This document shows, one piece after another, positions 15,976 to 41,407 of a stretch of DNA of 57,447 bases. The DNA comes from a virus (taxonomy: Duplodnaviria > Caudoviricetes): positions 1-57,447 of IMG/VR virus record IMGVR_UViG_3300031566_000035, one strand, 5' to 3'. The notes under the pieces were generated by a model that was given only the letters and a program-made list of their open reading frames with translations, had not been told where the DNA came from and searched no databases. Position numbers and translations under genes: made by a program. The number at the start of each line of letters is the position of its first letter. The first letter of the stretch is position 1.

Positions 15976-16257
15976 ATGAAAAACGAAGCAAAAAAGATTG
16001 ATAACAAACAAGGCAATGGAGTTTTACCGTGTGTTAGCGGTTCGTTTTCATGGAAAAAACTTCTACACAACTTTTGTTATTGGACAAATCCATTTTATAT
16101 GCTATCAACTGATTTAAAGAATAGTCCAAAAGCGCAGGCATTTATTGTAGAGCATTTCGGACATATACTTGAGCCAATAGTAATTTGGTTATCTAAAATG
16201 TTGTATTGCGCCATTAAGGCTTGTGCGCATAGCATCCGTTACGCTAAGAAAGGCTAA
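15976..16257 (+). CDS. Chimeric hypothetical protein at the degenerate left end of array 1
   Basis: Reads through orphan GTT arms at 16033 and 16200. Confidence 0.5.
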   Translation: MKNEAKKIDNKQGNGVLPCVSGSFSWKKLLHNFCYWTNPFYMLSTDLKNSPKAQAFIVEHFGHILEPIVIWLSKMLYCAIKACAHSIRYAKKG

Positions 16258-16284
16258 TTGAGTGATTTAAAAAGTTTTGAAATT

Positions 16285-16785
16285 ATGACTCATAAAGAAG
16301 AAAGAGAATTTATTCGACTAAAGTTTAATGGTAGATGTGCGTATTGCGGAAACCCATTGCCTAATAAGTGGCACGTAGACCATAAAATTCCAGTTGTTAG
16401 AAATAAAGAGTTTAATTATGAAAAAAACAAATGGGTTTCCGCAGGCTTTGAGAATCCAGAGAATGACAATATTGAAAACAAAATACCATCTTGTCCAAGT
16501 TGTAACATTAATAAACACTCATTGAGCGTAGATCAATTTCGTAGTTTGATTTCTGGATTTATAAAATCATTAAATAGAGACTCTGTGCAATATAAGGTAT
16601 CTAAAAGATATGGGTTGATACAAGAAATTGATAGGGATGTAGAATTTTATTTTGAAAAATTTCAAAACGAAAATCACGTCCCGTCGGTTTGCAAGTGTAT
16701 AAACTGGCATCCTTCAATTAAAGCAGATATGGGTAAAAAAGCAAGATGTTCGCATTGTGGTAAATTACGGCAAACTTATTGCTAA
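16285..16785 (+). CDS. HNH endonuclease with fused C-terminal Cys-rich tail
   Basis: CAYCG...VDHKIP...N..PSCPSCN motif; stop codon lies in CTAAC. Confidence 0.85.
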   Translation: MTHKEEREFIRLKFNGRCAYCGNPLPNKWHVDHKIPVVRNKEFNYEKNKWVSAGFENPENDNIENKIPSCPSCNINKHSLSVDQFRSLISGFIKSLNRDSVQYKVSKRYGLIQEIDRDVEFYFEKFQNENHVPSVCKCINWHPSIKADMGKKARCSHCGKLRQTYC

Positions 16786-16842
16786 CGGTGGTGTATGACA
16801 CGTTTGAATTAAACAGACATTAATTAAAAATACTATACAGTT

Positions 16843-17085
16843 ATGAAAAACACTAAATATACAAATACAGACTACGTGCAAATGTGTTATGACACGTTGT
16901 TAGCACCCGTTGTTTGGGGCGTTAATAAATTCGGACAAGAAGTAAAAGAACATGATAAGCTAAGTTGTGGCAATGGACACGATACTTGGTTTACTCACGT
17001 AATGTTTGACACACAAAGAAACTGTTGGCACAGGGAGCAAGACTATTACCACAGCCGAGTGGTTGGTTTTTACAATGGGTGCTAA
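16843..17085 (+). CDS. Cassette hypothetical protein
   Basis: Starts in attC loop, crosses GTT 16899, stops at TAAC. Confidence 0.7.
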   Translation: MKNTKYTNTDYVQMCYDTLLAPVVWGVNKFGQEVKEHDKLSCGNGHDTWFTHVMFDTQRNCWHREQDYYHSRVVGFYNGC

Positions 17086-17134
17086 CGGTTTGTGTTTGTG
17101 TAGTGCGTGAAATATGCACAAAATTTGATACGAG

Positions 17135-17335
17135 ATGAAAAAAACAATTTTATTTAACGACTTCTGTGCTAATAAAAAATGTGAAGAATATATTGCATGG
17201 AATTATGATGTCGAAGGTTGTCCAGTAGACTGTGAAAGTTGTAAACTGGTAGGACAAAGCCATGACATTACGGAATATCCTAAAAATTGTTTGTTTTTGA
17301 ATGACATACAAAAGTTTGAACGAGGCAGAAAGTAA
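17135..17335 (+). CDS. Cys-rich cassette protein inside an attC-like loop
   Basis: 66 aa with six Cys. Confidence 0.65.
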   Translation: MKKTILFNDFCANKKCEEYIAWNYDVEGCPVDCESCKLVGQSHDITEYPKNCLFLNDIQKFERGRK

Positions 17336-17476
17336 GCATGGAATTTACGCATTGTTAGCGTTATTGTGTTTTGCGAAACTATTTTGCTTCAACTTAGATT
17401 AAACTTTGTTGAGCAAAATATTAACGCTAACGGTTTAGGTATGGCATGTAATTTTACGAATTAAAAGAACGAAATA

Positions 17477-17719
17477 ATGGAAACAAAAGTATTAGAAATT
17501 ATTAAAGATGAAAGTGAAAAAGCAGATGTTAGAAAATACACCTGCATTAACGGATTTGGATATTCGCAGTTTGAACGCAATATAGCAGATAGGGTAGTAA
17601 AATTATTTGCTATACCACGTGTTACAAACTGGCGTTTTTGGTATGACAACCGAAACAACAGGATTGTAGGATTTATAGTTGGATTGATTACAGGCATGGC
17701 TATTTACGCTTGTTTGTAA
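17477..17719 (+). CDS. Cassette protein with C-terminal TM
   Basis: Crosses GTT 17621, stops at TAAC. Confidence 0.7.
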   Translation: METKVLEIIKDESEKADVRKYTCINGFGYSQFERNIADRVVKLFAIPRVTNWRFWYDNRNNRIVGFIVGLITGMAIYACL

Positions 17720-17868
17720 CGTTGACGCTATGAAAAGTAGCGGAAATCGAAGCACTTAACTATCAAATTACGATGAATTTAAATAAAATTATAAACCACC
17801 AAACAGCACCGACACCGCTATTTTTTATAGCATGTGTTATGCGCTGGGCGGTATAATAACAAATAATT

Positions 17869-18117
17869 ATGAAAAGTAATGATAAACCCGTAAACCCAAC
17901 TCCAATAGCTGGAGGTGATGAATCAGTAGTAAATATTCATTCAATGGCTAATAGTACAGGAATGACAGAAGGAATTACATTGCGTGAACATTTTGCATCA
18001 ATGGCTATGCAAGGATTATTAAGTCAACATAATCTAAAACAGCCTACTGACCAACAAATAATATGTCAACTTAGCGTTGAATTAGCCGATACGTTGCTTG
18101 ATGAACTCGCAAAGTAG
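17869..18117 (+). CDS. Conserved phage hypothetical protein (GxTLRExFA.MAMQG family)
   Basis: GITLREHFASMAMQGLL...ADTLL motif. Confidence 0.75.
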   Translation: MKSNDKPVNPTPIAGGDESVVNIHSMANSTGMTEGITLREHFASMAMQGLLSQHNLKQPTDQQIICQLSVELADTLLDELAK

Positions 18118-18238
18118 CCTTGCGCATAACGGTTTGGCTATGTTTTGAAGCCTAACCACAACCACAAATGATTGAATTTAGTATAAACTTGACAAAGGCT
18201 TTTAAATATAGCTTTTGTTATAAACTGAAAAAAAAATT

Positions 18239-18388
18239 ATGGCAACAACTATTTGGTTGATACTATCCTTGATTGAAAAAGAGCCGATACCTAACTTTTT
18301 GCAAAGCAATGGCAGTTGGGTTAGTTCGTGGATACCTGCATTATTGCTTGATTTATTCGTTATTTACATAATTTTTTATTGTTTATAA
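18239..18388 (+). CDS. 49-aa membrane peptide cassette
   Basis: MATTIWLILSLI...IYIIFYCL fills body 18217-18389 and stops at TAAC. Confidence 0.55.
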   Translation: MATTIWLILSLIEKEPIPNFLQSNGSWVSSWIPALLLDLFVIYIIFYCL

Positions 18389-18427
18389 CGAAAAAGTATA
18401 TGAACTGAAATTAAAATTTTTTGAGCG

Positions 18428-18640
18428 ATGGCAAGAACTAAAGGAAGCGGTTGGGGTGGTGGAACTATCCTATACCAAAAATGCCCTAAATGCGGCAAAA
18501 AGAAAGTAATGTATGATGGTGGTAGCGGAATAAGAGATTTAACCTCAATTCCGTTTAAATGCACCTCATGTAAGCATAGGTTTAATGACTCTGATTTGAT
18601 TAGAGAGCAATACGCAGCAAAAGCGGGTAGGCAATTTTAA
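18428..18640 (+). CDS. Zinc-ribbon protein inside an attC-like loop
   Basis: CPKCG and CTSCK pairs. Confidence 0.75.
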   Translation: MARTKGSGWGGGTILYQKCPKCGKKKVMYDGGSGIRDLTSIPFKCTSCKHRFNDSDLIREQYAAKAGRQF

Positions 18641-18820
18641 TTTTTGTTTATATACAGTGTTGTATTGAGCGCAGCGGCGTTTTAATGCAATACAACGTAT
18701 GGTAATATGAAAAGTTGGCTTTGTAGTCACTTTCAGTTTACCATCGCAGCTTGATAGCCAATTTTTTATATTACGTGTTATCGGCTGCCTTTTATTGTTA
18801 AATTATTAAATATCAAATAA

Positions 18821-19204
18821 ATGAAAAGAGAAATATTATTTAAAGGAAAATCGGTTAATACTGGCGAATGGGTTGAAAGTATGACTATTGCAAAAGGAAC
18901 TATTAAACGCAAAAAAGATGATGTGTTTATGGAGATTGGCGAAAATAAATGGATAGGTATTGAACCTAAATCATTAAGCCAATTTATAAACCAAAAGGAT
19001 AAAAACGGCAAAAAGATTTTTGAAGGCGATTATGATGCCGATGGTAATTGTGTTGTTTGGTGTGAAAACTGTAATGGTTTTGAATTTGCTGCTATAGATG
19101 TACCAACTAAAGATATTTGCATACCATGCCATAGATGCGATGGAAATTTCTTCTTTGGCGACCAAATAAACGACTTTGAGATTGTCGGAAATATTGCGGA
19201 CTAA
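18821..19204 (+). CDS. YopX family protein
   Basis: MKREILFKGK...DKNGKKIFEGD...EIVGNI. Confidence 0.85.
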   Translation: MKREILFKGKSVNTGEWVESMTIAKGTIKRKKDDVFMEIGENKWIGIEPKSLSQFINQKDKNGKKIFEGDYDADGNCVVWCENCNGFEFAAIDVPTKDICIPCHRCDGNFFFGDQINDFEIVGNIAD

Positions 19205-19299
19205 GGTTGCCGATAACGAATAGTGGTAAGCGGTCGTTTTAATGCCGTTTACCACGTGTTACCGGCTGACACGGATTATTAACCACTAAAGATTATTAA

Positions 19300-20139
19300 A
19301 TGAACGAATGTAGCAATAACAGTTTTTTGAGCGTTGGCAAAAACGGCTTTGCCGAACTTACACACGGCTCACTTTTTAGTGGCGTTGGCGGGTTTGAAGA
19401 AGGCTCTGAGCTGGCAGGAATAAAGACTATTTGGAATTGTGAACTTGAAAATTACCAAAGTAAAATATTAAAGCAAAATTACAATGAAAGCAAACAATAT
19501 AGAGATATTACAGAAGCCGAAATCAAAGAGCGAGTTAGCATCATTAGTGGAGGTTTTCCGTGCCAAGACATTAGCGTTGCGGGAAAAATGGAAGGTATCA
19601 CAGGTAAACGCTCTGGGCTTTGGAGTGAGATGTTTAGAATTATTAGGGACATTAGACCTTACTACGTCATCATTGAAAACTCGCCAGCTTTGCTTATTCG
19701 AGGATTTGAACAAGTCTTATGCGACCTTTCCAAAATCGGGTATAATGCAGAATGGCAAAGTATTTCAAACATCGCTTTTGGATACCCACACAAGAGAGAA
19801 AGATTATACGCTATTGCCTACGCCAACGAAATCGGATTACAAAGCGACATTTGCACAGGTGACGGCTTTAACTCGATATTTAGAAAGTGGACACCAAATC
19901 AGAATGATGGATATTCTTTGTCAAAAAGGATTCACGAAATCGGAGCGTGTGAAGATATTAGAAATGGTGATGGGTTTCAATCCTGGACACACAGAGTTGG
20001 AAGCATAGGAAATGCAGTAAACCCAACAGTTGCCTACTATTTATTTGAATGTATTAAGCATCATTTTTTAAAAAGGAGGGGAGAAAAAACTGTTATTGCG
20101 GACTTACAGCAGATAACTCGATTAAATGTATCGGCGTAG
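19300..20139 (+). CDS. C5 cytosine DNA methyltransferase, alpha chain
   Basis: LFSGVGG (I), GGFPCQD (IV), ENS (VI), HKRERLY (VIII), GNAV (X); motif IX not seen. Confidence 0.92.
   Translation: MNECSNNSFLSVGKNGFAELTHGSLFSGVGGFEEGSELAGIKTIWNCELENYQSKILKQNYNESKQYRDITEAEIKERVSIISGGFPCQDISVAGKMEGITGKRSGLWSEMFRIIRDIRPYYVIIENSPALLIRGFEQVLCDLSKIGYNAEWQSISNIAFGYPHKRERLYAIAYANEIGLQSDICTGDGFNSIFRKWTPNQNDGYSLSKRIHEIGACEDIRNGDGFQSWTHRVGSIGNAVNPTVAYYLFECIKHHFLKRRGEKTVIADLQQITRLNVSA
19484..20008 (+). CDS. Overlapping alternative-frame ORF, putative methyltransferase beta chain
   Basis: Nested in the +1 frame; LLPTPTKSD and terminal LEMVMGFNPGHT resembling motif IX; true start uncertain. Confidence 0.7.
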   Translation: MKANNIEILQKPKSKSELASLVEVFRAKTLALREKWKVSQVNALGFGVRCLELLGTLDLTTSSLKTRQLCLFEDLNKSYATFPKSGIMQNGKVFQTSLLDTHTREKDYTLLPTPTKSDYKATFAQVTALTRYLESGHQIRMMDILCQKGFTKSERVKILEMVMGFNPGHTELEA

Positions 20140-20239
20140 TGTTTGCTGGTAACGGTTTGGCTATGCACCGTATGAGGAACGAATATGGGGTATAGGTGTT
20201 GTTACCCACCTGTACCGATTTAATAACGAAAAACTTTAA

Positions 20240-20692
20240 TTGAAAATGAAAACTTTTGTCTTGACTGTTTCAAAGCAGTTTCCAAAAACACACGAAAAGG
20301 CTGGAAAATCAACTGGCTTTGTAGAAAATATCTCCCGACTATTTACTAATGATAGTGAGAAGATACATACTATTCGCTCAAATTATGACCTATGGCACAA
20401 ACGAGCAAAAGAAATAAACGAAGGAAAGGCTGTGTTGTCGATTAGATACTGGTTTGAAATGCCTTACCGTTCAAAGCAAGTTGAAATTTGCAGACTTGAA
20501 AGAGTTGGTGTTGAAAAACTTGAACAGCCTGACAACTTCGTATTTGCTCCAATTGAAGGGAAGCCGATTGATTGGGAATTAGTGGCAAAGAATGACGGTT
20601 TAAGTTTTGAGGACTTTTGCGAGTGGTTTAAGTCAAGACAAAAAGAACCTATGGCTGTTCTTCATTTTACCGACTTTAGGTATGGTGGGTAA
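20240..20692 (+). CDS. ASCH/PUA-like protein
   Basis: KIHTIR...W...PYRSKQ...AKNDGLSFEDF..WF; stops at TAAC. Confidence 0.65.
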   Translation: MKMKTFVLTVSKQFPKTHEKAGKSTGFVENISRLFTNDSEKIHTIRSNYDLWHKRAKEINEGKAVLSIRYWFEMPYRSKQVEICRLERVGVEKLEQPDNFVFAPIEGKPIDWELVAKNDGLSFEDFCEWFKSRQKEPMAVLHFTDFRYGG

Positions 20693-20874
20693 CGGTGGCA
20701 ATAAGAAACGAAAGGGATTGCGAGCCACGAACCTATCAAACCGTGAAAATTTGGCACGGATTACTGAACTTGATTAACCGATTAAACCCTTTTGTTTTTT
20801 ATTGCGTGTTATAAGCCGTATTTGTTTTATTATCAACCGAAAGTAAAATAATTTAAAAATAAATCACTTTTTAC

Positions 20875-20905
20875 TTGTATATATGATATATATTATATAT
20901 CTTTA
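20875..20905 (+). promoter_or_regulatory. Internal promoter/operator in cassette 20808-21257
   Basis: TTGTAT followed by near-palindromic ATATATGATATATTATATAT and TATCTTTA (near TAnnTTTG). Confidence 0.5.
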
Positions 20906-20938
20906 CTTCATAATTAATAACAAATAAAACATACAATT

Positions 20939-21103
20939 ATGAGTACAACAGAAGTAAGAGAACAATTAAAAGCAGAAGGAATTTCTGCAATTGTTAAATT
21001 GGTAGATAATAGATTTGAAATAAAAGTAAAAATGCAGGAAAACTTTACAAAAGTAGTAAGAATGTTTCCTTTGGCAAATGTAAGCCATACAACGATTAGA
21101 TAA
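20939..21103 (+). CDS. 54-aa hypothetical protein
   Basis: MSTTEVREQLKAEG...HTTIR; below the track cutoff. Confidence 0.65.
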   Translation: MSTTEVREQLKAEGISAIVKLVDNRFEIKVKMQENFTKVVRMFPLANVSHTTIR

Positions 21104-21244
21104 ATGAAAAAGATTATTGATATACCTGACGAAATAGTTAAAGACTTAAAGAAGTTAGCTATTGACCAAAATAAAGACCTAAAAAACTTTATTCAAGACG
21201 AACTAAAAAAACTTGTCGAGAACCCTCAATCGAAGCCGTCTTAA
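21104..21244 (+). CDS. Ribbon-helix-helix (CopG/Arc-like) regulator
   Basis: MKKIIDIPDEIVKDLKKLAIDQNKDLKNFIQDELKKLV; strand-helix-helix pattern. Confidence 0.75.
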   Translation: MKKIIDIPDEIVKDLKKLAIDQNKDLKNFIQDELKKLVENPQSKPS

Positions 21245-21399
21245 TATGGCTTATAACGTTGAGTATAAGAAACGTAGCGTTTTAAAACACTTAACTACAA
21301 TAACTTACAAAAGTGAAATTGAAATAGAAAATTTAATATTAACCACTGGTGCAGCTATGTTTTTTATACATTGTTACCACCAGTACATTAATTAACAGC

Positions 21400-21645
21400 A
21401 TGAAGAAATTTAATATAAACCACTATATGTACATTCAGATAACCGATACTGGATGGCAACACCTAAAGCAAACTGTGGGTGAAGATTACATTAAACATTG
21501 TATTGAACCTTATAAAACTGATGTAGATGGCAAAACTTGGTATAGATTACAAGCCCACAGTGTATTTGAACTACTGCCAATAAATTTCGGTGGACAAGTA
21601 GCCTACAACCCTAATGTAATGTTTGACGATAAAGACCTTACTTAG
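21400..21645 (+). CDS. Cassette hypothetical protein
   Basis: Fills body 21373-21658. Confidence 0.7.
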   Translation: MKKFNINHYMYIQITDTGWQHLKQTVGEDYIKHCIEPYKTDVDGKTWYRLQAHSVFELLPINFGGQVAYNPNVMFDDKDLT

Positions 21646-21702
21646 TATTGGTGGTAACGTTGAGTGTATGGTTTGATTTTTAACGATTTAAAAGAACGAA
21701 AT

Positions 21703-21954
21703 ATGAAAGATTTAGAACACTTACAAAGAATTATAAAAGAATTGCAAAATGATAAAGATAACGGAAAACTTGGTGATTACGCACAAGGTAGATTAGCTGC
21801 ATTTAAGATGTCAGAAAAATTAGTTAAAAATTTAACTATACATATTGTTAGCAATTCGGTTTGCTGCGATAACTGCCAACACCAAACACCAAGACATAGT
21901 ATTATGTGCAGTAGTTGCTTAGGGTTTAATCACTTTCAGCAAACTGATTGCTAA
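21703..21954 (+). CDS. Cassette protein with C-terminal zinc finger
   Basis: Crosses GTT 21847; CDNC and CSSC encoded in the body. Confidence 0.7.
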   Translation: MKDLEHLQRIIKELQNDKDNGKLGDYAQGRLAAFKMSEKLVKNLTIHIVSNSVCCDNCQHQTPRHSIMCSSCLGFNHFQQTDC

Positions 21955-22076
21955 TGTTTCGACTGTATGGCGTGAGCCTTGTACTTCACAAGGCGGAAAG
22001 CCATTCAATAGATGCTTACGCTATACAGTATGTTATGAGTAGTGACACAAGTTTTAACCTTAAAATAATTATAGAA

Positions 22077-22343
22077 ATGGAAAATGTAAAAGAATTAATT
22101 GAATTAAAAGCTATGATGATATTGGCTTGTAAACTAAATAAAGAGCAACTTATAATTGAACTTACAGACCTTGTAAATTCAATTAATTCAGCATCTATCG
22201 AAAGTCGAAACATTATGAGTAATGAGGCTCAAAAAGAGCTATTAATTGATGTGCTTAATGTTATTGAGCGTTACTATGATGTAGAATTTGGTAACATTGA
22301 TAATGCAGTAAGCTATATATTAGCTAAAATTAATAGTGATTGA
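22077..22343 (+). CDS. Cassette hypothetical protein
   Basis: Within body 22032-22371. Confidence 0.6.
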   Translation: MENVKELIELKAMMILACKLNKEQLIIELTDLVNSINSASIESRNIMSNEAQKELLIDVLNVIERYYDVEFGNIDNAVSYILAKINSD

Positions 22344-22428
22344 GCCGTCCACTTGTGGCATTACTCATAACGGTTTGGCTATGTTTTGAAAATATATTTT
22401 ACTAATTTTTAACTAAAATAAAAAGATA

Positions 22429-22857
22429 ATGAAAAGAGAAATTAAATTTAGAGTTTGGGAACAAAATAAAAAGAAAATGGTATATCCGATTGACACTTTA
22501 AAGGTGAGTAACGAGGAAGGATATTCACATTTAGAGCAATTTTTAGATCGTGGAGATTTAGTAATGGCAGACGATTATGATATTAAGCATTATAAAAAGT
22601 TACCATGTATTATGATGCAATACACTGGAATAAAAGATGTTGACGGCAAAGAAATTTACGAAGATGACATAATTAACGGTATGACCGTAACATACTGCGG
22701 AGATCAAAATGGCGGGCTTGGAATGGCTTGTGGTTGGTATTTACAGCAAGATGATTTTGAAAGATGGATAGAGTTAGAATCTAAATGTAATGCAAATGGA
22801 GATAACCATAAAATTGATGGGAATGTACATGAGAACCCTGAACTACTAAAAAGCTAA
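22429..22857 (+). CDS. YopX family protein inside an attC-like loop
   Basis: MKREIKFRVW...MQYTGIKDVDGKEIYEDD...GNVHENPELL. Confidence 0.9.
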   Translation: MKREIKFRVWEQNKKKMVYPIDTLKVSNEEGYSHLEQFLDRGDLVMADDYDIKHYKKLPCIMMQYTGIKDVDGKEIYEDDIINGMTVTYCGDQNGGLGMACGWYLQQDDFERWIELESKCNANGDNHKIDGNVHENPELLKS

Positions 22858-23098
22858 AAATATATTTATAAAATATTAGCTGTTGTTGTATTGCGCCATT
22901 AAGGCTTGTGCACATAGCATCCGTTACGCTAAGAACTGATTATTAATATGCAGATTATCAGCTTTAAACTGATACAGAGACTATGAAACATAAAAAACAT
23001 TATAGCGTAATGGAATACAATGGATGGCAATAAGAATAGTTGGCTCTCGAAATTTAGTACAGACTTTAATTTGAAATACAAATAAAAACAAAAAAGAG

Positions 23099-23422
23099 AT
23101 GGAAAAACATGATTTAAGAACACAAATTTGCATAGAAGTAGATGCAAAAAATATTGATGGTAAAACAGCGAGCAGATTACTACAAGCTATTAATAATACC
23201 GAAAATAAGCAAATAAGCAAATTACAACATTTCAAGGACACAACTGTTGGGCTATATGCTTTTGATTGTAACCCAGAAGATTTAATTATAAAATTTGTAA
23301 ATAGCCAAAGCGATGCTTGTAGTTTATTTACAGAAGATGTTGATAGACTTACTGAAGATTGGAAAACATTTTGTAATGATAAAAATATTGTAAAAAGTCC
23401 ATTTTTCAGAATTAGTGGGTAG
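23099..23422 (+). CDS. Hypothetical protein inside an attC-like loop
   Basis: 107 aa between arms at 23019 and 23494. Confidence 0.7.
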   Translation: MEKHDLRTQICIEVDAKNIDGKTASRLLQAINNTENKQISKLQHFKDTTVGLYAFDCNPEDLIIKFVNSQSDACSLFTEDVDRLTEDWKTFCNDKNIVKSPFFRISG

Positions 23423-23510
23423 GCTTTTGTTTTTATTCCACACAAACCTACTGCACTTGATTGAAAAACAAGCCAATTATTTTTATTGCGTGTTATAAAC
23501 TGTAAAAATT

Positions 23511-23702
23511 ATGAGCATATTATTAGACAAATTACTAAAAGAAGCAGACACCTCAACAACCACACAAGCAAAAGATTTGAAGTGGTATATCGCAAAACCA
23601 TTACCGTTTTATTCGTTGAAAACAAAACTTAAAAGGATAAAAGATGGATTAAGAGTTATGAACGGAAAATCTTTTGCGGTACATTATAAACAAGATGAAT
23701 AA
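23511..23702 (+). CDS. Cassette hypothetical protein
   Basis: Fills body 23492-23719. Confidence 0.7.
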   Translation: MSILLDKLLKEADTSTTTQAKDLKWYIAKPLPFYSLKTKLKRIKDGLRVMNGKSFAVHYKQDE

Positions 23703-23846
23703 TTTTTATTGTTTATAACGGCTGGCGGTATGGTTTAGTAAAGGCTGACCACTACCGACCAATCGAAGAACAAAACTTAATTCAGCCTTTATTAACTATA
23801 CCGCTTGTTAGGCTTTCGTGCTTTGCGGGCGGGAAACACAAAGATT

Positions 23847-24074
23847 ATGAGAAACTATACAACATTAGATTTAGTGAGGTTTAACAGGCTTGCAAATGAA
23901 AACAAAGACCTAAAGCCAATTGAGTTGATTAAATTATATAATGAAAAGTACCCTGAGAAAACAGCAAAAGAAAAACTGATAATTTTATCAAAGGCTTTAG
24001 GAATTAATAACCTACACAAAGCCTTAACTGGTAATGATATTCCAGAGGACGAGCGTTGGGAGCATGAAGCCTAA
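23847..24074 (+). CDS. Cassette hypothetical protein
   Basis: Stops at TAAC. Confidence 0.7.
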   Translation: MRNYTTLDLVRFNRLANENKDLKPIELIKLYNEKYPEKTAKEKLIILSKALGINNLHKALTGNDIPEDERWEHEA

Positions 24075-24134
24075 CGGCAAATTGTAAGTTGTCGGGTGCT
24101 GTTGAAATACGCACAGAATTAAATTGAAAAATAA

Positions 24135-24470
24135 ATGTTGAATAACTTAAATAGTGAACGGATGAAATTTACAGACAAACAAATTAAGGCAGCAAAGGAA
24201 GTGAAAGAAGAAGTAATACACGGTACTTTGTATGATTGGAGACATATTTACATGGCTGGTGAAATTTGCATGTGGGACGAATTACAGCAAAAGAAAGTGA
24301 ACGGTGTTGAACAAAGCGAAAGCACCTGCAATTTACAAAATGTTATAGATAGGTTTTGTGCGTTGGAAGATGCGATGAAACTTACTCTTACAAAAAACAT
24401 TGGTAAAGTTAGTTTAATAAATAGATTTGAAGAACTTGGTAAAGCGCTGGGGAGGGAAACTTCTCTATAA
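24135..24470 (+). CDS. Cassette hypothetical protein
   Basis: Crosses GTT 24342, stops at TAAC. Confidence 0.7.
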   Translation: MLNNLNSERMKFTDKQIKAAKEVKEEVIHGTLYDWRHIYMAGEICMWDELQQKKVNGVEQSESTCNLQNVIDRFCALEDAMKLTLTKNIGKVSLINRFEELGKALGRETSL

Positions 24471-24534
24471 CGTTGAGCGTATGCGCCTGTTGGCGTGTTG
24501 ATTAGAATTACATAACTTTAAAAACAGATATAAG

Positions 24535-24762
24535 ATGAAAAAAGAAAACACAGTTAAAAATACCACTAAGCCAATGGCGTATGACGCATTGTTAGGTGTT
24601 GTTGCTGCCGAGCTAACCCAAGCAGCCGAAATAATACAACACTTAAAGGCTTATGGAATGATACACCCAGTTACAGGAGTTAAATACCCAGAAGGAACGC
24701 ACCAAGATTTTATTAGAAAAGCTGATGAATGGCTATGGCGTTTCCGAGGCAATAACACCTAA
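24535..24762 (+). CDS. Cassette hypothetical protein
   Basis: Crosses GTT 24591 (AYDALL), stops at TAAC. Confidence 0.7.
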   Translation: MKKENTVKNTTKPMAYDALLGVVAAELTQAAEIIQHLKAYGMIHPVTGVKYPEGTHQDFIRKADEWLWRFRGNNT

Positions 24763-24810
24763 CGGTAAATTGTATGGGTTGATTTTGCCCGATTTAAAAT
24801 AACAAATGAT

Positions 24811-28576: not shown

Positions 28577-28590
28577 TTTTATTTGTTTAT

Positions 28591-32465: not shown

Positions 32466-32795
32466 ATGAAAACAGAAAAAGAAAAATTAATTGATGCTCA
32501 AAAAGAGTATATTAAATTTTTAGATAAATACATAAGTGGAGTTTCAATGTATTTACATGTTCACGGACAAATTCAAAATGATAAAGATGTTAAGAAAGGA
32601 AAACTTATGAGGGATAAAATATCAGAATTAGAAAAATCAATTAATCCTCAGAATGAACCCGCTGGGCATCGAAGATTAGAGGATAATAAGGTTCAAAAAA
32701 AGCCTTGTCCTCATCCGGGAATCATGTGTTTTGACACAATGAAACCTGTTAAATGTTGGAAATGTGATAAATTATTAAGTAAAAAAGGCGATTGA
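32466..32795 (+). CDS. Hypothetical protein with Cys-rich C-terminus
   Basis: 109 aa ORF. Confidence 0.65.
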   Translation: MKTEKEKLIDAQKEYIKFLDKYISGVSMYLHVHGQIQNDKDVKKGKLMRDKISELEKSINPQNEPAGHRRLEDNKVQKKPCPHPGIMCFDTMKPVKCWKCDKLLSKKGD

Positions 32796-32876
32796 ACCGT
32801 TCGTTTTTACGATATTAACCATACCGCTTGTTAGCGTTTCGTTTTTGAGCGTTGGCGGTAGAAAACTTAAAATATC

Positions 32877-33215
32877 ATGGGAGAAACAGCAGACATGATA
32901 CTTGATGGTATCTTAGATGAACAAACAGGTGAATATATCGGTGAGGCGGTAGGATATCCACGGACAATGCAGAAAGGATGTTATAACTCAATTAAAAAAC
33001 GAAAGCCTAAACGAAACATTAAATATGCGATGAAAGGCGAAAGTTTAGGAGGGTTGCATTTAGTGGGAAAGAACGCTATAATCGAAAATGTAGGTGAATG
33101 TGAAATTGTGGACTATATAGGGAAAAGAGGTCGTAAAAGATATGTTTTGATTGATAATGAAGGTAAAGAACATAGAGTTGAATTTAGCAGTATGACGCTG
33201 TGCGTTGGCAAATGA
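32877..33215 (+). CDS. Cassette hypothetical protein
   Basis: MGETADMILDG...GEYIGE..GYPR; fills body 32830-33223. Confidence 0.75.
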   Translation: MGETADMILDGILDEQTGEYIGEAVGYPRTMQKGCYNSIKKRKPKRNIKYAMKGESLGGLHLVGKNAIIENVGECEIVDYIGKRGRKRYVLIDNEGKEHRVEFSSMTLCVGK

Positions 33216-33290
33216 ACGCTAACGGTAAAGCTATGTTGCGTGCGAGAATACAGAAAAATAATTATACGTTAAATAAAAAAAATAGAAATT

Positions 33291-33488
33291 ATGAGTGCAA
33301 AGGATTTTAAAAGAAAAAAAGCAATTGCATTTTTAGGGTTAATTGGAGTTAAAACAGACACTAAAATAAACCTAGAACATGGAAAAGATTGTGGTGCTAC
33401 AATGAAATTAATAGATATTATGGTTGCGTTTTATGATGATATGTGCGATACACAAAAAAACACCGTATGCAATTGCACAAAAAGCTAG
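33291..33488 (+). CDS. Cassette hypothetical protein
   Basis: Starts after left arm 33221; right arm not found. Confidence 0.55.
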   Translation: MSAKDFKRKKAIAFLGLIGVKTDTKINLEHGKDCGATMKLIDIMVAFYDDMCDTQKNTVCNCTKS

Positions 33489-33792
33489 CGGTGTTGACTT
33501 GGTGTTTACGTGTACTTGCGGCGAAAAAATAAACTTATAATATGGTTGCTAATGTTAGTATAAGTGGCGTTTTTTCTATGCCATTTATACATTGTTACCT
33601 GACTGGTACGATTTATAAGCCTAAAACTTTGATTTAAGCACACAATAAGTAACTATTTATTTTTTAGCGTTGGCAAATTAATGAGGCACGAATTAAAATA
33701 TTTACAAAATAATTAAAATAATTTGCTTTTATAGTTGATAATTACAAAATAAGTTATATATTTGTAGTGTAAGAAACAAACAAATAGAAATT

Positions 33793-34080
33793 ATGAAAAG
33801 AAATGTGTGGATACCAAAAATGACAAAAGGAAGATTAGAAAGATTATTAGCCAAATCAAAGTTAACTAATGATGAAAAAGAAGATTTGTTAGACTACAAG
33901 TATTTTTTACTTAATCAAAAAGTTTGTGCTTATGAGAAAAAATTAATGGATGCTGTAAGTGTTAATCAAGCAGAAGAGTTTTGCGATATTAGAGGTTGTA
34001 TTTTAGTTCCTAAAAATATGTTTTGGTTAACTAACATAAATCATTTAACTAACGGATTTAAAAGCGAATACTATTTATAA
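33793..34080 (+). CDS. Hypothetical protein in promoter-bearing cassette
   Basis: Preceded by a TATATTTG -7 box near 33757. Confidence 0.7.
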   Translation: MKRNVWIPKMTKGRLERLLAKSKLTNDEKEDLLDYKYFLLNQKVCAYEKKLMDAVSVNQAEEFCDIRGCILVPKNMFWLTNINHLTNGFKSEYYL

Positions 34081-34268
34081 TGGCATACATATACTACAAT
34101 AAAGAATTAAACCAATACAGATTGTTTGGAAGCCTTCCTGTAATGTGTAAGACTTGCGAATTAGATTACACGCATTTACAATACGCATTTAGAAATAATA
34201 AAACGGAATACGAAAACGACACTTTAAAGATTATTAAGGTTACGCTTGAAAGGGGTGGAAAAAAATAA
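34080..34268 (+). CDS. Small putative HTH regulator
   Basis: FGSLPVMC...LDYTHLQYAF helix pattern; translationally coupled. Confidence 0.6.
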   Translation: MAYIYYNKELNQYRLFGSLPVMCKTCELDYTHLQYAFRNNKTEYENDTLKIIKVTLERGGKK

Positions 34269-34474
34269 ATAGTTACGTGTAGATAAAAACAGGTTTTAGA
34301 ATTAAGCACGAACCTAAGTACTTGCAGGTACGAAAAAGTATATGATTTCGAGCCGATAAATGGCACGAAACTACAATAACAGAATAAAGTAAATTAATAT
34401 TATAAACTAAGAAGATAGCACCAACACGGCTTGAATTATATACGGTGTTGTGCATCTTTTAAAAATGCGGAATT

Positions 34475-34789
34475 ATGCAAGGAAAATACCTTATAAACAC
34501 AGATGAATGGTTTGTTGCACCAAATGGTAATAGCTACAAAGCAGCGTGGGGAAATGTTGAAATAATAGAAGACACTTCTTTAGGACTAAAAACTAACAGA
34601 AATAGTACAAATTGGTATGCTAGAGTGGGGAGCGAGGACAACCACATAATAATAGCAGGTTGCCAAATACACTACGCTGTTAGATGCGAGAATAAACCTA
34701 ATACAGAACCGAGCGAAGAATGGCAAGCAGATGCAGCCAATGGGCTAAAAGAATATAAAGCACCTGCCCGAATATATATAGCTGAGTAG
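34475..34789 (+). CDS. Cassette hypothetical protein
   Basis: Fills body 34447-34809. Confidence 0.75.
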   Translation: MQGKYLINTDEWFVAPNGNSYKAAWGNVEIIEDTSLGLKTNRNSTNWYARVGSEDNHIIIAGCQIHYAVRCENKPNTEPSEEWQADAANGLKEYKAPARIYIAE

Positions 34790-34956
34790 CATTTTTTATT
34801 GTGCACAACAACGCTAAGCTGAAATTCGTTTCAATGAATTTTAGCGACCGTTATCAATCGTATGACGGAGGCTGAGCTTGTCGAAGCCGAGTAATATGAT
34901 TGACAGGACAGACAAAAAGTTTTTAAATGCAGATTTTTATATAAATTTAAAAAAAA

Positions 34957-36910: not shown

Positions 36911-36921
36911 AAAATAAAACC

Positions 36922-38999: not shown

Positions 39000-39484
39000 A
39001 TAAATAAATATAATATACTGACACAGTGATGGTTATAAATACGTCATAAATCTTTAACATCTTTTTTGCGTTTTCGTTTTGCCCGATAGGGCCTTTTCCC
39101 TCCTATAATTACCAAACACAAAACCTAAAATAACTTTTTGGATTCGTTATAAATTACGGATATAGTTGTATATGTTACAAAAATGTAGTATTATTGCCGA
39201 TAGAACACAACAAAGATGTAGTATTGATAATTTTAAGGGGTCATTCCGCCTTGATGATGACATTAATTTTTATTGTTGGTAATGGAAAAGAATATGAATA
39301 ATAAGGGAGTAAGGCACGGGTAAGAGTCCCGTAGAAATAGGTGAAGTGTCGATAGGGCAATCAGCCAACTGCAATCCTACCCTTATTATTTATTGTTGTA
39401 TGTCTTTTTAAATTGTAGATAACGCACCGTGCGCGGAGTGAAACGGGATACAATGCGGACTGTTGATTAAAATTACAAAAGGCG

Positions 39485-39799
39485 ATGGACAAGGAAAGTA
39501 GATACGAATTACAAAAAATTGACTGCAACTGTAACGATTGCTTTTTTATGGTTAGGGATTTTGATACTTATAAAAAATGGGGATCATTTCACATGGATTT
39601 GCAATTAAAAGAATTTGAACATAAAAAAGAGAACGGAGAAATAAGACCTAATGCGCAATTTCAATTTGATAAAAGCACTTTACTTCAATATGGGAAATGC
39701 TCAAAATTAGGCAAAGGCATTTCGTTTATACCTAACGTATGTCAAATTGAGACTCAAGAGTGCTTCAAACATAGGCGAGTGCGTTTTAATGCATTTTAA
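39485..39799 (+). CDS. Cys-rich hypothetical protein
   Basis: DCNCNDC...C...C...CF. Confidence 0.7.
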   Translation: MDKESRYELQKIDCNCNDCFFMVRDFDTYKKWGSFHMDLQLKEFEHKKENGEIRPNAQFQFDKSTLLQYGKCSKLGKGISFIPNVCQIETQECFKHRRVRFNAF

Positions 39800-39829
39800 A
39801 CATTGTTGTAAATCTTTTAAATACGGAAT

Positions 39830-40066
39830 ATGGAACACGAACTTAAAATACTCCCACAATACTTCGAGGAAGTGTGGAGCGAAAACAAAACCTTTGAACT
39901 AAGAGAGGATGACAGAGATTATAAAATAGGTGATACTTTGAGACTACTTGAATTTGACTACGGAACTTATACAGGTAGAGAATGCAACCGAACAATATTA
40001 TACATACTTAGAGATGCTGACCAATACGGACTGAAAGAAGGTTTTGTGATACTAGCAATGAAGTAG
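39830..40066 (+). CDS. ASCH/DUF3850 family protein
   Basis: HELKILPQYF...KTFELR.DDRDYKIGD.L.L.E. Confidence 0.85.
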   Translation: MEHELKILPQYFEEVWSENKTFELREDDRDYKIGDTLRLLEFDYGTYTGRECNRTILYILRDADQYGLKEGFVILAMK

Positions 40067-40203
40067 TATTTTATTGTTTACAACGTTGAATGCAAGGTGT
40101 CGTGGCTGCCTGATAAAAGCTACATAGTTATAAATTTAAACAAATATTGATATGAAAAACGAAACTTTAAAACCCCAACAGCCATGCACTATATAACATA
40201 GTT

Positions 40204-40485
40204 ATGGGTAGTACTTATAGAATGCCAGAAAGTTTCTCTGAATATGAAGGCGAAGAGATTATGTCAAACTTTGACGGGCGTGTAGTAGAAGAAAGTGCAA
40301 AAGCAATTAAAGGTAAGGAATTATTTAGTAGGTATGCTGGTTGGAACTTTAACGGAAAAGTTTGGTGGCAGAATGATAAATGGTTATGTGAAGTGTGGTG
40401 TTATAGAAGCTGGAGAGAAACTTTCGTTTGTGAAACGCCAAAAGAATTAATGGAAGAGATAAGCTCTGAATATGGGTACGAATAG
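40204..40485 (+). CDS. Cassette hypothetical protein
   Basis: Fills body 40201-40498. Confidence 0.7.
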   Translation: MGSTYRMPESFSEYEGEEIMSNFDGRVVEESAKAIKGKELFSRYAGWNFNGKVWWQNDKWLCEVWCYRSWRETFVCETPKELMEEISSEYGYE

Positions 40486-40576
40486 TATTACCCATAACGG
40501 ACAGCGGTATGATTCGTTTGCTCCTCGAATCACCACGAAATTAGGAGCGTAGTATTAACTTAACAATTTACGAGCG

Positions 40577-40924
40577 ATGGATTTTGGATATGCTATACAG
40601 ATTTTAAGAGAAAAATTAGTTGATGATAGTTATGAACTTACATTAGCTGTTGAACAAAAAGATGAAGAAGTGCAGGAACGGCAAAAAGAACGCTTAGCTA
40701 TATTGCAGGATGCGATGAATGCGTTGGCTAAACCTTCGAGCATACCACAAGCAAATGAATTATTACCGCATGTTAGCGGTAGTAATAATTTTAAGAAGAT
40801 ACTTAAAAAAGCTAACAGTGAAATATGGCACCTAACTAATGATGAAATAAGAAGTTGGGAAAAAGATGGAAGTATAGAACGTGGTGATATTTTGTACAAA
40901 GTTGTAACAGATACACTGTACTAA
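40577..40924 (+). CDS. Cassette hypothetical protein
   Basis: Crosses GTT 40772 (LLPHVSGS). Confidence 0.7.
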   Translation: MDFGYAIQILREKLVDDSYELTLAVEQKDEEVQERQKERLAILQDAMNALAKPSSIPQANELLPHVSGSNNFKKILKKANSEIWHLTNDEIRSWEKDGSIERGDILYKVVTDTLY

Positions 40925-41006
40925 TTATTACCGCTAACGGTTTGTGTATGAAAAGTACGGGATTAACCCTAAAAATTATAAACGAGTACAAATAAAATTT
41001 ACGATT

Positions 41007-41228
41007 ATGAAAACAACAAATGAATTAAGAGACGAATTAGCAATGAAAATGCCAAAAGAAGCATTGCCAACGCTTAACGCACAAGAAACTATGGAGAAAG
41101 TTGCAAAAGAATTTGATATTGATGTTGACTTTAATGATGAGATAAGCCTTATTGAATTTAGCCTAAAATACCAAGCTGCAATAAGGTATAAGTATGCTGA
41201 TGCAATGATTGAAGCAAGAGCTAAGTAA
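41007..41228 (+). CDS. Hypothetical protein inside an attC-like loop
   Basis: LRDELAM...YKYADAMIEAR motif. Confidence 0.75.
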   Translation: MKTTNELRDELAMKMPKEALPTLNAQETMEKVAKEFDIDVDFNDEISLIEFSLKYQAAIRYKYADAMIEARAK

Positions 41229-41407
41229 ATTTTATTGCTTCAATTACGCAGCAAAGTAGATACGAGAGATACAGTAGTATTTTTTATACACTTTGTTACC
41301 GTGTCGTTGCTTCTCCTTAAAAGATGTGACGCTCAAAGATTGCTACTAATTAATTTTAGAGCAATGCACGGTAACTATGTTATATAGTTCACTTTTATTG
41401 CAATAAA

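What the first reader, a model, noticed from the sequence alone, without database searches (positions are those of the whole stretch)
16033..41389. Phage accessory genome built from integron-like gene cassettes, with no integrase on board
Seen: about 30 imperfect hairpins bounded by AAC...GTT, in four arrays (16.0-25.9, 28.6-29.0, 32.4-34.9, 39.3-41.4 kb). They alternate with bodies whose first 8-21 nt after GTT are complementary to their last nt before AAC, and the pair differs for almost every body (GTTACAAAC/GTTTGTAAC, GTTATCGGC/GCCGATAAC, GTTATGAGTAGTGACACAAGT/ACTTGTGGCATTACTCATAAC). Established: this is the R''/R' signature of integron cassettes that circularise through attC. The cargo is ordinary phage genes (YopX twice, methyltransferase, ASCH, zinc ribbons), not bacterial resistance genes, and no tyrosine recombinase ORF is recognisable. 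Inference: the phage shuffles its own accessory genes as cassettes using a host or helper IntI-like enzyme.
Basis: partly seen in the sequence, partly recalled or inferred. Interest (0 to 1): 0.95.

Follow-up and report, generated by a model that had tools for sequence, protein, structure and literature searches.

The report
Integron-type gene cassettes in a phage
Much of this phage's accessory genome is a string of small gene cassettes separated by folded recombination sites of the kind bacteria use in integrons, and the same sites fill the chromosomes of its likely hosts, so phage and host may trade genes through one cut-and-paste system.

Summary
Between 16.8 and 41.4 kb there are 21 perfect inverted repeats of 9 nt or more anchored on GTTA/GTTG...AAC. 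Shuffles give 2.1±1.4, and the rest of the window has 1. Each pair is different.

The hairpins between them belong to a structured family. A covariance model built only from Bacteroidota chromosomal sites finds 14 in the window, all on the + strand. In bacteria these sites form arrays just downstream of a dedicated Xer-like tyrosine recombinase (21 of 30 loci, same orientation every time). Sites occur in 89 of 101 sampled genomes of one family, almost certainly Flavobacteriaceae.

Cassettes recur in different contexts, and homology breaks exactly at the AAC. The window has no tyrosine recombinase. Neither do three 98-100% complete array-rich phages or Polaribacter phage P12002L.

The host enzyme lacks the IntI-specific domain. 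Phage ORFs lie on the opposite strand, relative to site polarity, from bacterial cassette ORFs.

attC clusters in phages are already published (Qi 2023). The scale, the reversed polarity, the attI-like array ends and the host system appear new. Recombination itself is inferred, not shown.

The parts
16780..25914 (+). Array 1: about 20 cassettes. Each is a folded site (AAC-GGTTnGnnTATG...L'..nT-GTT) followed by a body whose first 9-10 nt (GTTAnnnnnn) are complementary to its last 9-10 nt (nnnnnnTAAC).
   Evidence: 12 covariance-model hits at E<0.01, all on the + strand. Perfect arm pairs are listed. There are 6 long-loop sites with pairing flanks.
28586..29008 (+). Array 2: one long-loop site (AAC 28593 ... 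GTT 28881) and its body 28881-29008. ORF 28638-29006 starts in the loop and stops on the TAA of TAAC.
   Evidence: Sequence read. Flank pairing is -20.1 kcal/mol, against a cross-pair mean of -9.5. No model hit at E<0.01.
32370..34860 (+). Array 3: body 32830-33223, model hits 33547-33600 and 34326-34453, and a weak hit 34806-34856.
39294..41375 (+). Array 4: bodies 40201-40498, 40772-40938 and 41295-41375. Long-loop sites at 40498-40772 and 40938-41295. Weak model hits at 39294-39393 (E 0.93) and 40078-40207 (E 0.11).
19217..20152 (+). Example of one inferred cassette: C of AAC, a 42-nt hairpin, GTTACCGGC, the C5 cytosine methylase ORF 19300-20139, then ...GCTGGTAA. One mismatch in the arms.
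   Evidence: Model hit 19211-19264. DNA fold z -4.1. PF00145 at 6e-40. Contigs from another study's run cover 19214-20165 with 9-11 differences and then diverge.
25639..25914 (+). Cassette whose ORF (25701-25913) starts inside the hairpin loop, reads through L' and R', and stops on the TAA of TAAC. Viral contig L044 has the same hairpin (95%) and the same arms with an unrelated payload.
25911..25926 (-). attI-like half-site at the end of array 1. On the - strand it reads CTATATAAC-ATA-GTTA. It is part of a 57-nt block repeated exactly at 29002-29058.
   Evidence: Bacterial arrays start next to the recombinase with CATATAAAC-AA-GTT.
29004..29019 (-). attI-like half-site at the end of array 2.
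41372..41387 (-). attI-like half-site at the end of array 4. An inverted copy lies at 40185-40204 on the + strand.
   Evidence: (I14).
42169..48088 (.). Context that makes this a tailed phage: terminase large subunit 42169-43467 (-), small subunit 43451-43906 (-), portal 44072-45430 (+), capsid 46346-48088 (+).
   Evidence: Pfam.

Best explanation
The accessory region of this phage is made of integron-type gene cassettes. The likely host is in Bacteroidota, probably Flavobacteriaceae.

Each site is a roughly 45-130 nt imperfect hairpin, longer when an ORF sits in its loop. It has an outer R stem whose only invariant letters are AAC/GTT, an asymmetric spacer, and an inner L stem that is conserved in structure but not in sequence.

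The mobile unit on the + strand runs from the C of one AAC through the hairpin, the GTT and the body to the TAA of the next TAAC. When such a unit is circularised, its two 10-nt arms pair and complete the site. This explains why each body's ends are complementary to each other and to nothing else.

The same site family fills chromosomal arrays of the host family. There the arrays begin immediately downstream of a dedicated Xer-like tyrosine recombinase.

I infer the following. During infection this host enzyme (in some phages a phage-borne relative) recombines folded single-stranded sites. It excises cassettes and inserts them at the attI-like half-sites that end three of the phage's arrays. 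That lets the phage gain, lose and reorder accessory genes without an integrase of its own.

Shown: the anatomy, the family membership, the covariation, the cassette-sharp homology breaks, and the linkage to a recombinase in bacteria.

Inferred: that the enzyme acts on these sites, that it does so in phage DNA, and where exactly in the AAC triplet the strands are exchanged.
For: 1. Arm complementarity is far above chance: 21 pairs against 2.08 +/- 1.35 in shuffles.
2. In 39 bacterial sites the consensus fold has 22 pairs, 17 of them with compensatory changes. The model built from those sites finds 14 window sites, all on one strand. The window's own sites covary.
3. Bacterial linkage. The best integron-integrase-like hit of 5 of 5 genomes examined lies in the recombinase family, and in the 3 whose flanks I read it abuts the array. 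In 30 recombinase loci from a family sample, 21 have a site within 1.5 kb, always 3' of the gene and on the opposite strand. Five of the 9 misses lie at contig ends.
4. Co-occurrence in 101 genomes: both 74, sites only 15, recombinase only 3, neither 9.
5. Unit of mobility. Of 79 pairs of hairpins >=85% alike, 10 share only the arm after GTT and 1 shares only the arm before AAC. In L323 (a duplicate), L116/L080 (two viral contigs) and L253/L196, identity stops at the AAC on both sides.
6. ORFs respect that unit. Of 25 arm pairs listed, 12 are entered by an ORF across the GTT, 1 across the AAC, and 10 stop on the TAA of TAAC. Three of those 25 pairs I regard as chance or cross pairings.
7. No tyrosine recombinase in the window. 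None either in viral records G111, G113 and G114 (98-100% complete, with 35, 15 and 10 sites) or in Polaribacter phage P12002L.
8. P12002L is a published phage CALIN, and one of its sites was recombined by IntI1 (Qi 2023, section 3.4 read). It carries 8 sites of this family at E<1e-4.
Against: - No excision, insertion or circular junction was seen for this phage. The runs available were contigs only, and their joints were ambiguous.
- No close relative of the phage was found, so gain and loss could not be mapped in its own lineage.
- Folding energies of the long sites are no better than shuffles.
- Nine sites have loops of 189-443 nt holding coding sequence. That is far beyond known attC loops and should fold poorly.
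- The candidate enzyme lacks the domain that defines IntI. Nobody has shown that it acts on hairpins.
- The window is about 64% complete, so an enzyme could lie in the missing part. L289 shows that phage-like contigs can carry one.
- The attI-like resemblance rests on a 7-nt motif. Related strings also occur at ordinary L' ends.
Confidence: 0.68

Rival explanations
1. The cassettes are real, but they are moved by a phage-encoded enzyme rather than a host one. That could be a tyrosine recombinase in the missing third of the genome, or another nuclease on board (HNH 16258-16785, NinG/Rap-like 26962-27366).
For: The record is about 64% complete. Phage-like contig L289 has an array (5606-9459) directly followed by a 266-aa tyrosine recombinase, then a DnaB-like helicase, a clamp and a DNA polymerase. 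Nine of the 80 viral loci with recombinase relatives carry sites. HNH and NinG/Rap genes are present in the window.
Against: Three array-rich viral records rated 98-100% complete, and the complete isolate genome of P12002L, have no PF00589 match and no match to the array-linked family (which covers the IMG/VR records only). HNH and Rap enzymes are not known to carry out conservative site-specific exchange (recalled). Five recombinase-bearing viral records gave no Terminase_6N or capsid match, so their viral nature is unproven.
Confidence: 0.14
2. The hairpins are intergenic regulatory or processing elements of the phage transcript (terminators, RNase sites, promoter-stem-loop modules). Genes are shuffled by ordinary homologous recombination between these repeats, as proposed for the PeSL elements of T4-type phages (recalled, not checked here).
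For: The sites lie between genes on the sense strand. All 14 are on the coding strand. Three positions are invariant G-T (G-U) pairs, which an RNA would tolerate well. Hairpin cores are the main DNA shared with other viral contigs.
Against: - Homologous recombination between repeats does not explain why each body's two ends are complementary to each other and differ between bodies.
- In bacteria the same sites lie antisense to the cassette ORFs: 117 against 23.
- In bacteria they are tied to a recombinase gene.
- No hairpin has the T-run of an intrinsic terminator. The 4 terminator-like hits on the + strand lie elsewhere.
- No Rfam family matches.
Confidence: 0.08
3. The arrays are inert relics: pieces of host chromosomal arrays picked up by illegitimate recombination and no longer mobile in the phage.
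For: Qi 2023 suggests such routes for some phage CALINs (section 3.4). Several window sites are degenerate or have very long loops.
Against: - Phage cassettes have the opposite coding polarity to bacterial ones: 119 against 14 in viral loci, 117 against 23 the other way in bacterial loci.
- ORFs start inside the sites and stop on the TAA of the R box.
- The cargo is phage-like.
- There are four arrays, and three end on near-identical half-sites.
- The arms are still perfect in 21 pairs.
- The same cassette occurs in different viral contigs.
Confidence: 0.07

Closest known systems
CALINs (clusters of attC sites lacking an integron integrase) in phage genomes, Qi et al. 2023, Front Microbiol (PMC9892861). 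Abstract, section 3.4 and passages read; supplements closed.
   Same: attC-type sites flank small genes, including DNA methyltransferases, in virulent phages without an integrase. One of their phages, Polaribacter phage P12002L, carries 8 sites of exactly this family. They showed that IntI1 can recombine one P12002L site.
   Different: They found 17 CALINs in 10,705 phage genomes, each with as few as 2 sites, and called the frequency 'not high'. Here there are about 23 sites in one phage and 10-37 in others, and the sites organise most of the accessory genome. They did not link the sites to a host system, and they read 'divergent directions' as mosaicism. I find that sites follow the gene strand. 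I could not see their supplementary tables, so I cannot say which of my hits are their attC1 and attC2.
Sedentary chromosomal integrons (for example the Vibrio superintegron) and integrons of the 'inverted integrase' type, as described in Cury 2016 (passages read).
   Same: Long arrays of mostly single-ORF cassettes. Species-homogeneous folded sites with invariant AAC/GTT. R'/R'' complementarity within a cassette. A recombinase at one end, co-directional with the cassettes as in the inverted type.
   Different: The recombinase lacks the IntI-specific domain and has an extra N-terminal domain of about 100 aa. The R stems are 10 bp. The spacers are asymmetric (5 nt against 2-3 nt). The system was present in 89 of 101 sampled genomes of a family that integron surveys treat as nearly integron-free.
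PeSL 'mobile regulatory cassettes' of T4-type phages (recalled from memory; not searched or read here).
   Same: Repeated intergenic stem-loops flank small novel ORFs in hyperplastic phage regions, and are proposed to mediate gene shuffling.
   Different: Those act through homologous recombination between like repeats. They have no cassette-specific end complementarity, no AAC/GTT boxes and no counterpart next to a host recombinase.

Membership tests
Integron (IntI + attI + attC cassettes) | attC: an imperfect hairpin with R''/R' boxes whose AAC/GTT triplets are conserved and L''/L' boxes conserved in structure rather than sequence | tested here: met
   In A1 the invariant columns are AAC-G and T-GTT. 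There are 22 consensus pairs, 17 with compensatory changes. In the window's 14 sites 95.6% of cells pair, against 68.8% when shuffled.
Integron (IntI + attI + attC cassettes) | The start of a linear cassette (after GTT) is complementary to the R'' at its own end, because both come from one site in the circular form | tested here: met
   21 perfect arm pairs against 2.08 +/- 1.35 in shuffles. The arms travel with one hairpin: 10 against 1.
Integron (IntI + attI + attC cassettes) | Cassettes are discrete mobile units with exchange inside the conserved triplet | tested here: met
   Identity ends at the AAC on both sides in L323 (a duplicate), L116/L080 and L253/L196. For the window itself there are only window/L044 and another study's contigs that diverge after 20165.
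Integron (IntI + attI + attC cassettes) | An integrase of the IntI clade, with the IntI-specific additional domain, next to the array | tested here: not met
   The window has no PF00589 match. The bacterial array-linked enzyme scores 197.8 and 178.5 bits on TIGR02249 (cut-off 265), in two stretches that skip model positions 181-236. Its best solved relatives are XerA-type. TIGR02249 over the cut-off: 0 of 101 genomes (the control set held no positive).
Integron (IntI + attI + attC cassettes) | An attI insertion site between the integrase and the first cassette | tested here: inconclusive
   The bacterial junctions share CATATAAAC-AA-GTT. Three of the phage's array ends read CTATATAAC-ATA-GTT on the reverse strand. 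The motif is short, and related strings occur at ordinary L' ends.
Integron (IntI + attI + attC cassettes) | Integrase-catalysed recombination of the folded bottom strand | not testable with these tools
   Only indirect: IntI1 recombined one P12002L site in E. coli (Qi 2023). Three invariant G-T pairs make the two strands fold differently.
Integron (IntI + attI + attC cassettes) | Cassette ORFs co-oriented with site polarity (ORF first, then attC on the top strand) | tested here: not met
   Met in bacterial loci (117 against 23). Reversed in viral loci (119 against 14) and in the window (7 against 1).
CALIN (Cury 2016) | Two or more attC sites clustered with no integron integrase nearby | tested here: met
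   14 model hits and no tyrosine recombinase. The model is my own family model. IntegronFinder's attC model and HattCI could not be run here.
Intrinsic terminators | A G+C-rich stem followed by a T-run | tested here: not met
   10 terminator-like hits in 16-26 kb, against 5.2 +/- 2.3 in shuffles. Only 4 are on the + strand and none is at a hairpin.

The most novel reading that the evidence does not exclude
Bacteroidota and their phages share a second, IntI-independent integron system. A Xer-like recombinase serves structure-specific sites that are near-universal in Flavobacteriaceae chromosomes. Phages without any integrase plug into the system through attI-like half-sites. Host and phage keep two cassette pools of opposite coding polarity, so a cassette that crosses over lands antisense and silent. 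The result would be a common gene market for the phage-host arms race with a built-in polarity barrier.
Probability: 0.35. Interest if true: 0.92.

Novelty: new variant of a known kind. Interest (0 to 1): 0.8.

Why it matters
Integrons are viewed as bacterial devices, and Bacteroidota as a phylum that largely lacks them. The IntegronFinder 2 preprint reports only In0 elements and one Salinibacter integron. A 2024 preprint lists Bacteroidota among clades 'previously found without any integrons'.

The evidence here points to three things:
- a large, unrecognised cassette system in Flavobacteriaceae that uses a different recombinase;
- virulent phages that organise most of their accessory genes (methylases, YopX, nucleases) as cassettes of that system;
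- a concrete, testable route for rapid gene turnover in phage genomes and for phage-host gene exchange.

It would also give a second natural structure-specific recombination system to compare with IntI/attC.

Tried and rejected
Relatives of the phage.
- Megablast of 1-25000 and 25001-50000 against 50,697 phage records: no match.
- blastn 'distant' with 16700-22400: 20 records, gene-level hits only (methylase, YopX), no hairpins.
- tblastn with the terminase: best 31% identity.
- Portal protein in IMG/VR: nothing.
- Helicase: 4 distant loci.
- So breakpoints could not be mapped in the phage's own lineage.

Other negative or uninformative searches.
- The attI-like 18-mer in IMG/VR gave 3 unrelated contigs.
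- Rfam: 0 matches at E<=1 over 15000-42500.

16-mer counts.
- In 596 Gb about 280 chance hits are expected under uniform composition (my arithmetic), so the counts alone prove nothing.
- What counts is that about 91 of 120 titles name Bacteroidota (my count by eye).
- 30 of 120 bacterial loci have >=3 GTTA/GTTG-anchored repeats, as do 37 of the 45 top-ranked rows printed for the 122 viral loci (the remaining rows were not printed).

Sequencing runs.
- All four runs were contigs.
- The source run's contigs break at the sites.
- Many joints had short sides or low likeness and may come from other organisms. I draw nothing from them.
- Parts without cover are not evidence.

Recombinase-bearing viral records.
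- Terminase_6N and capsid searches found nothing in 5 of 5 records, so I do not call them phages. The exception is L289, on the strength of its replication genes.
- ORF 29056-29778, which sits where L289 has its recombinase, matches no PHROG. I dropped the idea that it is a degenerate recombinase.

Literature.
- Six searches found no paper on these Flavobacteriaceae arrays or on cassette polarity in phages. Subscription journals and supplements were not searchable.

Folding.
- Energies were weak, so I did not use them as support.

Rows dropped.
- L213 was left out of alignment A1 as not a site, along with one other row that I did not identify (one search used 39 of the 41 non-redundant sites).
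- Overlapping loci L187, L142, L243, L246 and L247 were dropped, and L338 as well.
- In one search I regard the pairs 16396-16786, 21823-22413 and 24958-25914 as chance or cross pairings, but they are kept in the counts.

Full report
WHAT THE WINDOW IS. The window is a whole IMG/VR virus record of 57,447 bp. It is linear and rated about 64% complete by CheckV. It encodes terminase large and small subunits, a portal, a capsid protein, a DnaB-like helicase and an HNH endonuclease, plus a NinG/Rap-like nuclease. From 1 to 41.4 kb nearly all long ORFs are on the + strand. No isolated phage is close: megablast finds nothing and the terminase is at most 31% identical to any record.

THE OBSERVATION. 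Reading 15.9-26 kb shows a repeating pattern...nnnnnnTAAC-GGTTTGGCTATG...(hairpin)...CRT-GTTAnnnnnn...body...nnnnnnTAAC. A script lists every perfect inverted repeat of 9 nt or more. The ones with non-AT-rich arms almost all start exactly at GTTA/GTTG and end at TAAC/CAAC, lie 38-500 nt apart, and each has different arms.
- In 16000-41500 there are 21 such pairs.
- 100 dinucleotide shuffles give 2.08 +/- 1.35 (max 5).
- The other 31.9 kb of the window has one.
The count of 'about 30' hairpins is a little high; I can support about 23 (see below).

THE HAIRPINS ARE A STRUCTURED FAMILY SHARED WITH BACTEROIDOTA CHROMOSOMES. Exact-match counts of that size are partly chance. But about 91 of the 120 titles name Bacteroidota (my count), and many loci show the same GTTA...TAAC architecture with 10-nt arms. 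Examples are L110 with 25 pairs and L037 with 21, and the bacterial loci L187, L222 and L142.

I aligned 39 non-redundant sites taken only from bacterial loci.
- The invariant letters are AAC-G at one end and T-GTT at the other.
- RNAalifold gives 22 pairs, 17 with compensatory double changes.
- A covariance model of these bacterial sites (R1) finds 14 matches in the window at E<0.01. All are full-length and on the + strand, between 16780 and 34453. Nothing comparable turns up elsewhere.
- Within those 14 window sites 95.6% of cells pair, against 68.8 +/- 2.1% after shuffling partners and 35-55% when partners are slid. This alignment was fitted to the model, which favours it.

Twelve further AAC-to-GTT intervals are too long for the model because ORF starts or whole ORFs sit in the loop (189-1120 nt). 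In 9 of these 12, all with loops of 189-443 nt, the two flanks pair with each other better than the 5th percentile of mismatched flank pairs.

Thermodynamics alone is weak. DNA-fold z-scores of three long sites are -0.75, -0.25 and -1.8, and only the 62-nt site reaches -4.1. No hairpin has a terminator's T-run, and Rfam has no match.

IN BACTERIA THE SITES FORM ARRAYS TIED TO ONE RECOMBINASE. In five genomes holding such arrays, the best hit to the integron-integrase model TIGR02249 is a 353-393 aa tyrosine recombinase. In the three genomes whose flanks I read, it abuts the array:
- Tamlana: gene 3973-5154 (+) in L251, first cassette at 5324.
- A Bacteroidales genome: gene 17433-18584 (-) in L253, array ending at 17361.
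- A Prolixibacteraceae genome: L254.

I then sampled 101 genomes of the Tamlana family.
- The recombinase family was found in 77 at E<=1e-60.
- Co-occurrence: both 74, sites only 15, recombinase only 3, neither 9.
- Of 30 recombinase loci fetched with 1.5-kb flanks, 21 hold a site. In all 21 it lies 3' of the gene and on the opposite strand.
- Five of the nine misses sit within 270 nt of a contig end.

Cassette ORFs in bacterial arrays run the same way as the recombinase gene. This is the layout of 'inverted-integrase' integrons.

The enzyme is not an IntI.
- It scores below the cut-offs of TIGR02249 (197.8 against 265) and of the XerA/integron-integrase model NF040815 (209 against 220).
- It matches TIGR02249 in two stretches that skip model positions 181-236, where the IntI-specific domain lies.
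- It is closer to solved XerA-type enzymes than to IntI4.
- It has an extra N-terminal domain of about 100 aa.
- Source databases call it 'tyrosine-type recombinase/integrase', 'XerD' or 'site-specific tyrosine recombinase/integron integrase'.
- No TIGR02249 match over the cut-off was found in 0 of 101 genomes. The control set had no positive, so the sensitivity of that search is unproven.

WHAT THE MOBILE UNIT IS. I took all hairpins bounded by perfect arm pairs (216 sites in all loci plus the window) and compared those at least 85% alike.
- Of 79 pairs, 64 share neither variable arm and 4 share both (identical loci).
- 10 share only the arm after the GTT. 1 shares only the arm before the AAC, and that one is a repeated cassette in a genome with homogeneous hairpins.
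- In the informative cases the sequence before the AAC is unrelated, while the hairpin, the arm and usually the body after it are the same.
- In L323 (two copies in one contig), L116/L080 (two viral contigs) and L253/L196 (two places in one genome), identity stops at the AAC on both sides.

So the unit, in the orientation of the model and of the window's + strand, runs from the C of one AAC through the hairpin, the GTT and the body to the TAA of the next TAAC. Circularising it joins its two arms into a perfect 10-bp R stem.

For the window itself there are two pieces of evidence.
- The unit 25645-25914 shares its hairpin (95%) and both arms with a unit in viral contig L044, but has an unrelated payload.
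- Contigs from a different study's metagenome cover the methylase unit 19214-20165 with 9-11 differences and then diverge.

A TWIST: PHAGE CASSETTES HAVE THE OPPOSITE CODING POLARITY. Counts of bodies by the strand of the dominant ORF, relative to the model orientation:
- Bacterial loci: 117 on the opposite strand, 23 on the model strand.
- Viral loci: 14 on the opposite strand, 119 on the model strand.
- The window: 1 on the opposite strand, 7 on the model strand.

In the window an ORF of at least 40 aa enters the body across the GTT in 12 of 25 listed pairs and crosses the AAC in 1. In 10 the stop codon is the TAA of TAAC (three of the 25 pairs are probably chance).

So in the phage the site precedes its gene. 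It often supplies the start codon and even a conserved N-terminal peptide. The first 24 residues of ORF 25701 are 92% identical to those of an L044 ORF.

Three columns are invariant G-T pairs. The complementary strand has A-C mismatches there, and it does not form the long stem. This points to the model strand as the folded, active one. That strand is the non-coding strand in bacteria, as for classical attC bottom strands, but the coding strand in the phage.

ARRAY ENDS. Arrays 1, 2 and 4 end with TAAC-TATGTTATATAG. The first two lie inside an identical 57-nt block. Read on the other strand this is CTATATAAC-ATA-GTTA. The junction between recombinase and first cassette in bacterial loci reads CATATAAAC-AA-GTT or a close variant (L338-L343, L359, L251, L363). 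This looks like an attI-type half-site (L'-spacer-R' with no partner), but the motif is short and similar strings occur at ordinary L' ends. I rate it as suggestive.

IS THERE AN INTEGRASE? The window has no PF00589 match in six frames, but a third of the genome may be missing. Stronger evidence comes from elsewhere.
- Viral records G111 (93 kb, 100% complete, 35 sites), G113 (56.6 kb, 100%, 15 sites) and G114 (37 kb, 98%, 10 sites) have no tyrosine recombinase. Within each record, all listed sites lie on one strand.
- The complete genome of the virulent Polaribacter phage P12002L also has none.
- Against a blanket rule: contig L289 has an array followed by a 266-aa tyrosine recombinase and a phage replication module.

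WHAT IS KNOWN. Qi et al. 2023 (abstract, section 3.4 and passages read; supplements closed) reported 17 clusters of attC sites without integrase in 10,705 phage genomes, including P12002L. They showed that IntI1 recombines five of six tested phage sites. Model R1 finds 8 sites in P12002L at E<1e-4. Seven are on the - strand among the - strand early genes, around the methylases that the paper figures, and one is on the + strand among + strand genes. The window is therefore a member of a published kind.

What I did not find in print, in six full-text searches:
- the scale seen here;
- the link to a near-universal Flavobacteriaceae array system with a non-IntI recombinase;
- the polarity inversion;
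- the attI-like ends.

Survey papers treat Bacteroidota as nearly devoid of integrons (passages read).

VERDICT. It needs three corrections: the unit boundaries, the coding polarity, and a Xer-like rather than IntI-like candidate enzyme. The recombination step is inferred, not shown.

Noticed in passing
L251-L254, L338-L367 (bacterial loci); G001-G110: Chromosomal arrays of the same folded sites occur in 89 of 101 sampled genomes of one Bacteroidota family. Some span more than 60 kb (G099 C1 537765-601472). Each starts just downstream of a 370-420 aa Xer-like tyrosine recombinase that lacks the IntI domain. I found no paper describing this.
   Followed up: partly
L289:5606-18066: An IMG/VR contig (61 kb, CheckV 84%) carries a cassette array directly followed by a 266-aa tyrosine recombinase, then a DnaB-like helicase, a clamp and a split DNA polymerase. 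This may be a phage-borne complete version of the system.
   Followed up: partly
window 25909-25965 and 29002-29058: An exact 57-nt direct repeat spans the array end, an AT-rich stretch and the ATG of the next gene. A looser copy lies at 20885-20941.
   Followed up: partly
window 16199-16259 and 22884-22944: A 61-nt direct repeat, 92% identical, that is not a hairpin site of the family. One copy lies at the end of ORF 15976-16257 and the other downstream of the second YopX gene.
   Followed up: no
window 16015-16041, 25746-25772, 40754-40780: Three ORFs read through L'-spacer-R' (TTACCnnnTGTTAGCGGT) and so share the peptide LPxVSGS. A recombination site is imposing a conserved protein motif (D12).
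   Followed up: partly
window 29090-29128, 29411-29438, 29442-29486: Iteron-like repeats (ATAAGGGGCTTACAAGGGGCTTAT and an inverted copy) and a TAAAGA tandem run lie inside ORF 29056-29778, just upstream of the helicase. This may be a replication origin or initiator gene. The ORF matches no PHROG.
   Followed up: no
window 36252-36344: Four copies of a roughly 23-nt AT-rich repeat (TTTATTTAT...) spaced at 19, 23 and 23 nt (D4).
   Followed up: no
window 38545-39480: About 0.9 kb without ORFs of 50 aa or more lies between the early-gene block and array 4. It begins with a strong terminator-like hairpin (CCCCTCTC...GAGGGGTTTTTTT at about 38566-38598).
   Followed up: no
alignment A3 columns 8/171, 21/161, 27/156: Three positions of the site are G-T pairs in all 14 window sites, and in 36-39 of the 39 bacterial sites. 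This makes the two DNA strands fold differently.
   Followed up: partly
window 16000-25999, run X1: The source run's contigs end at the hairpin sites (17362, 18161/18197, 19232, 21283/21333, 22028, 23689/23782, 24593). The sites therefore act as repeat nodes in the assembly graph.
   Followed up: no
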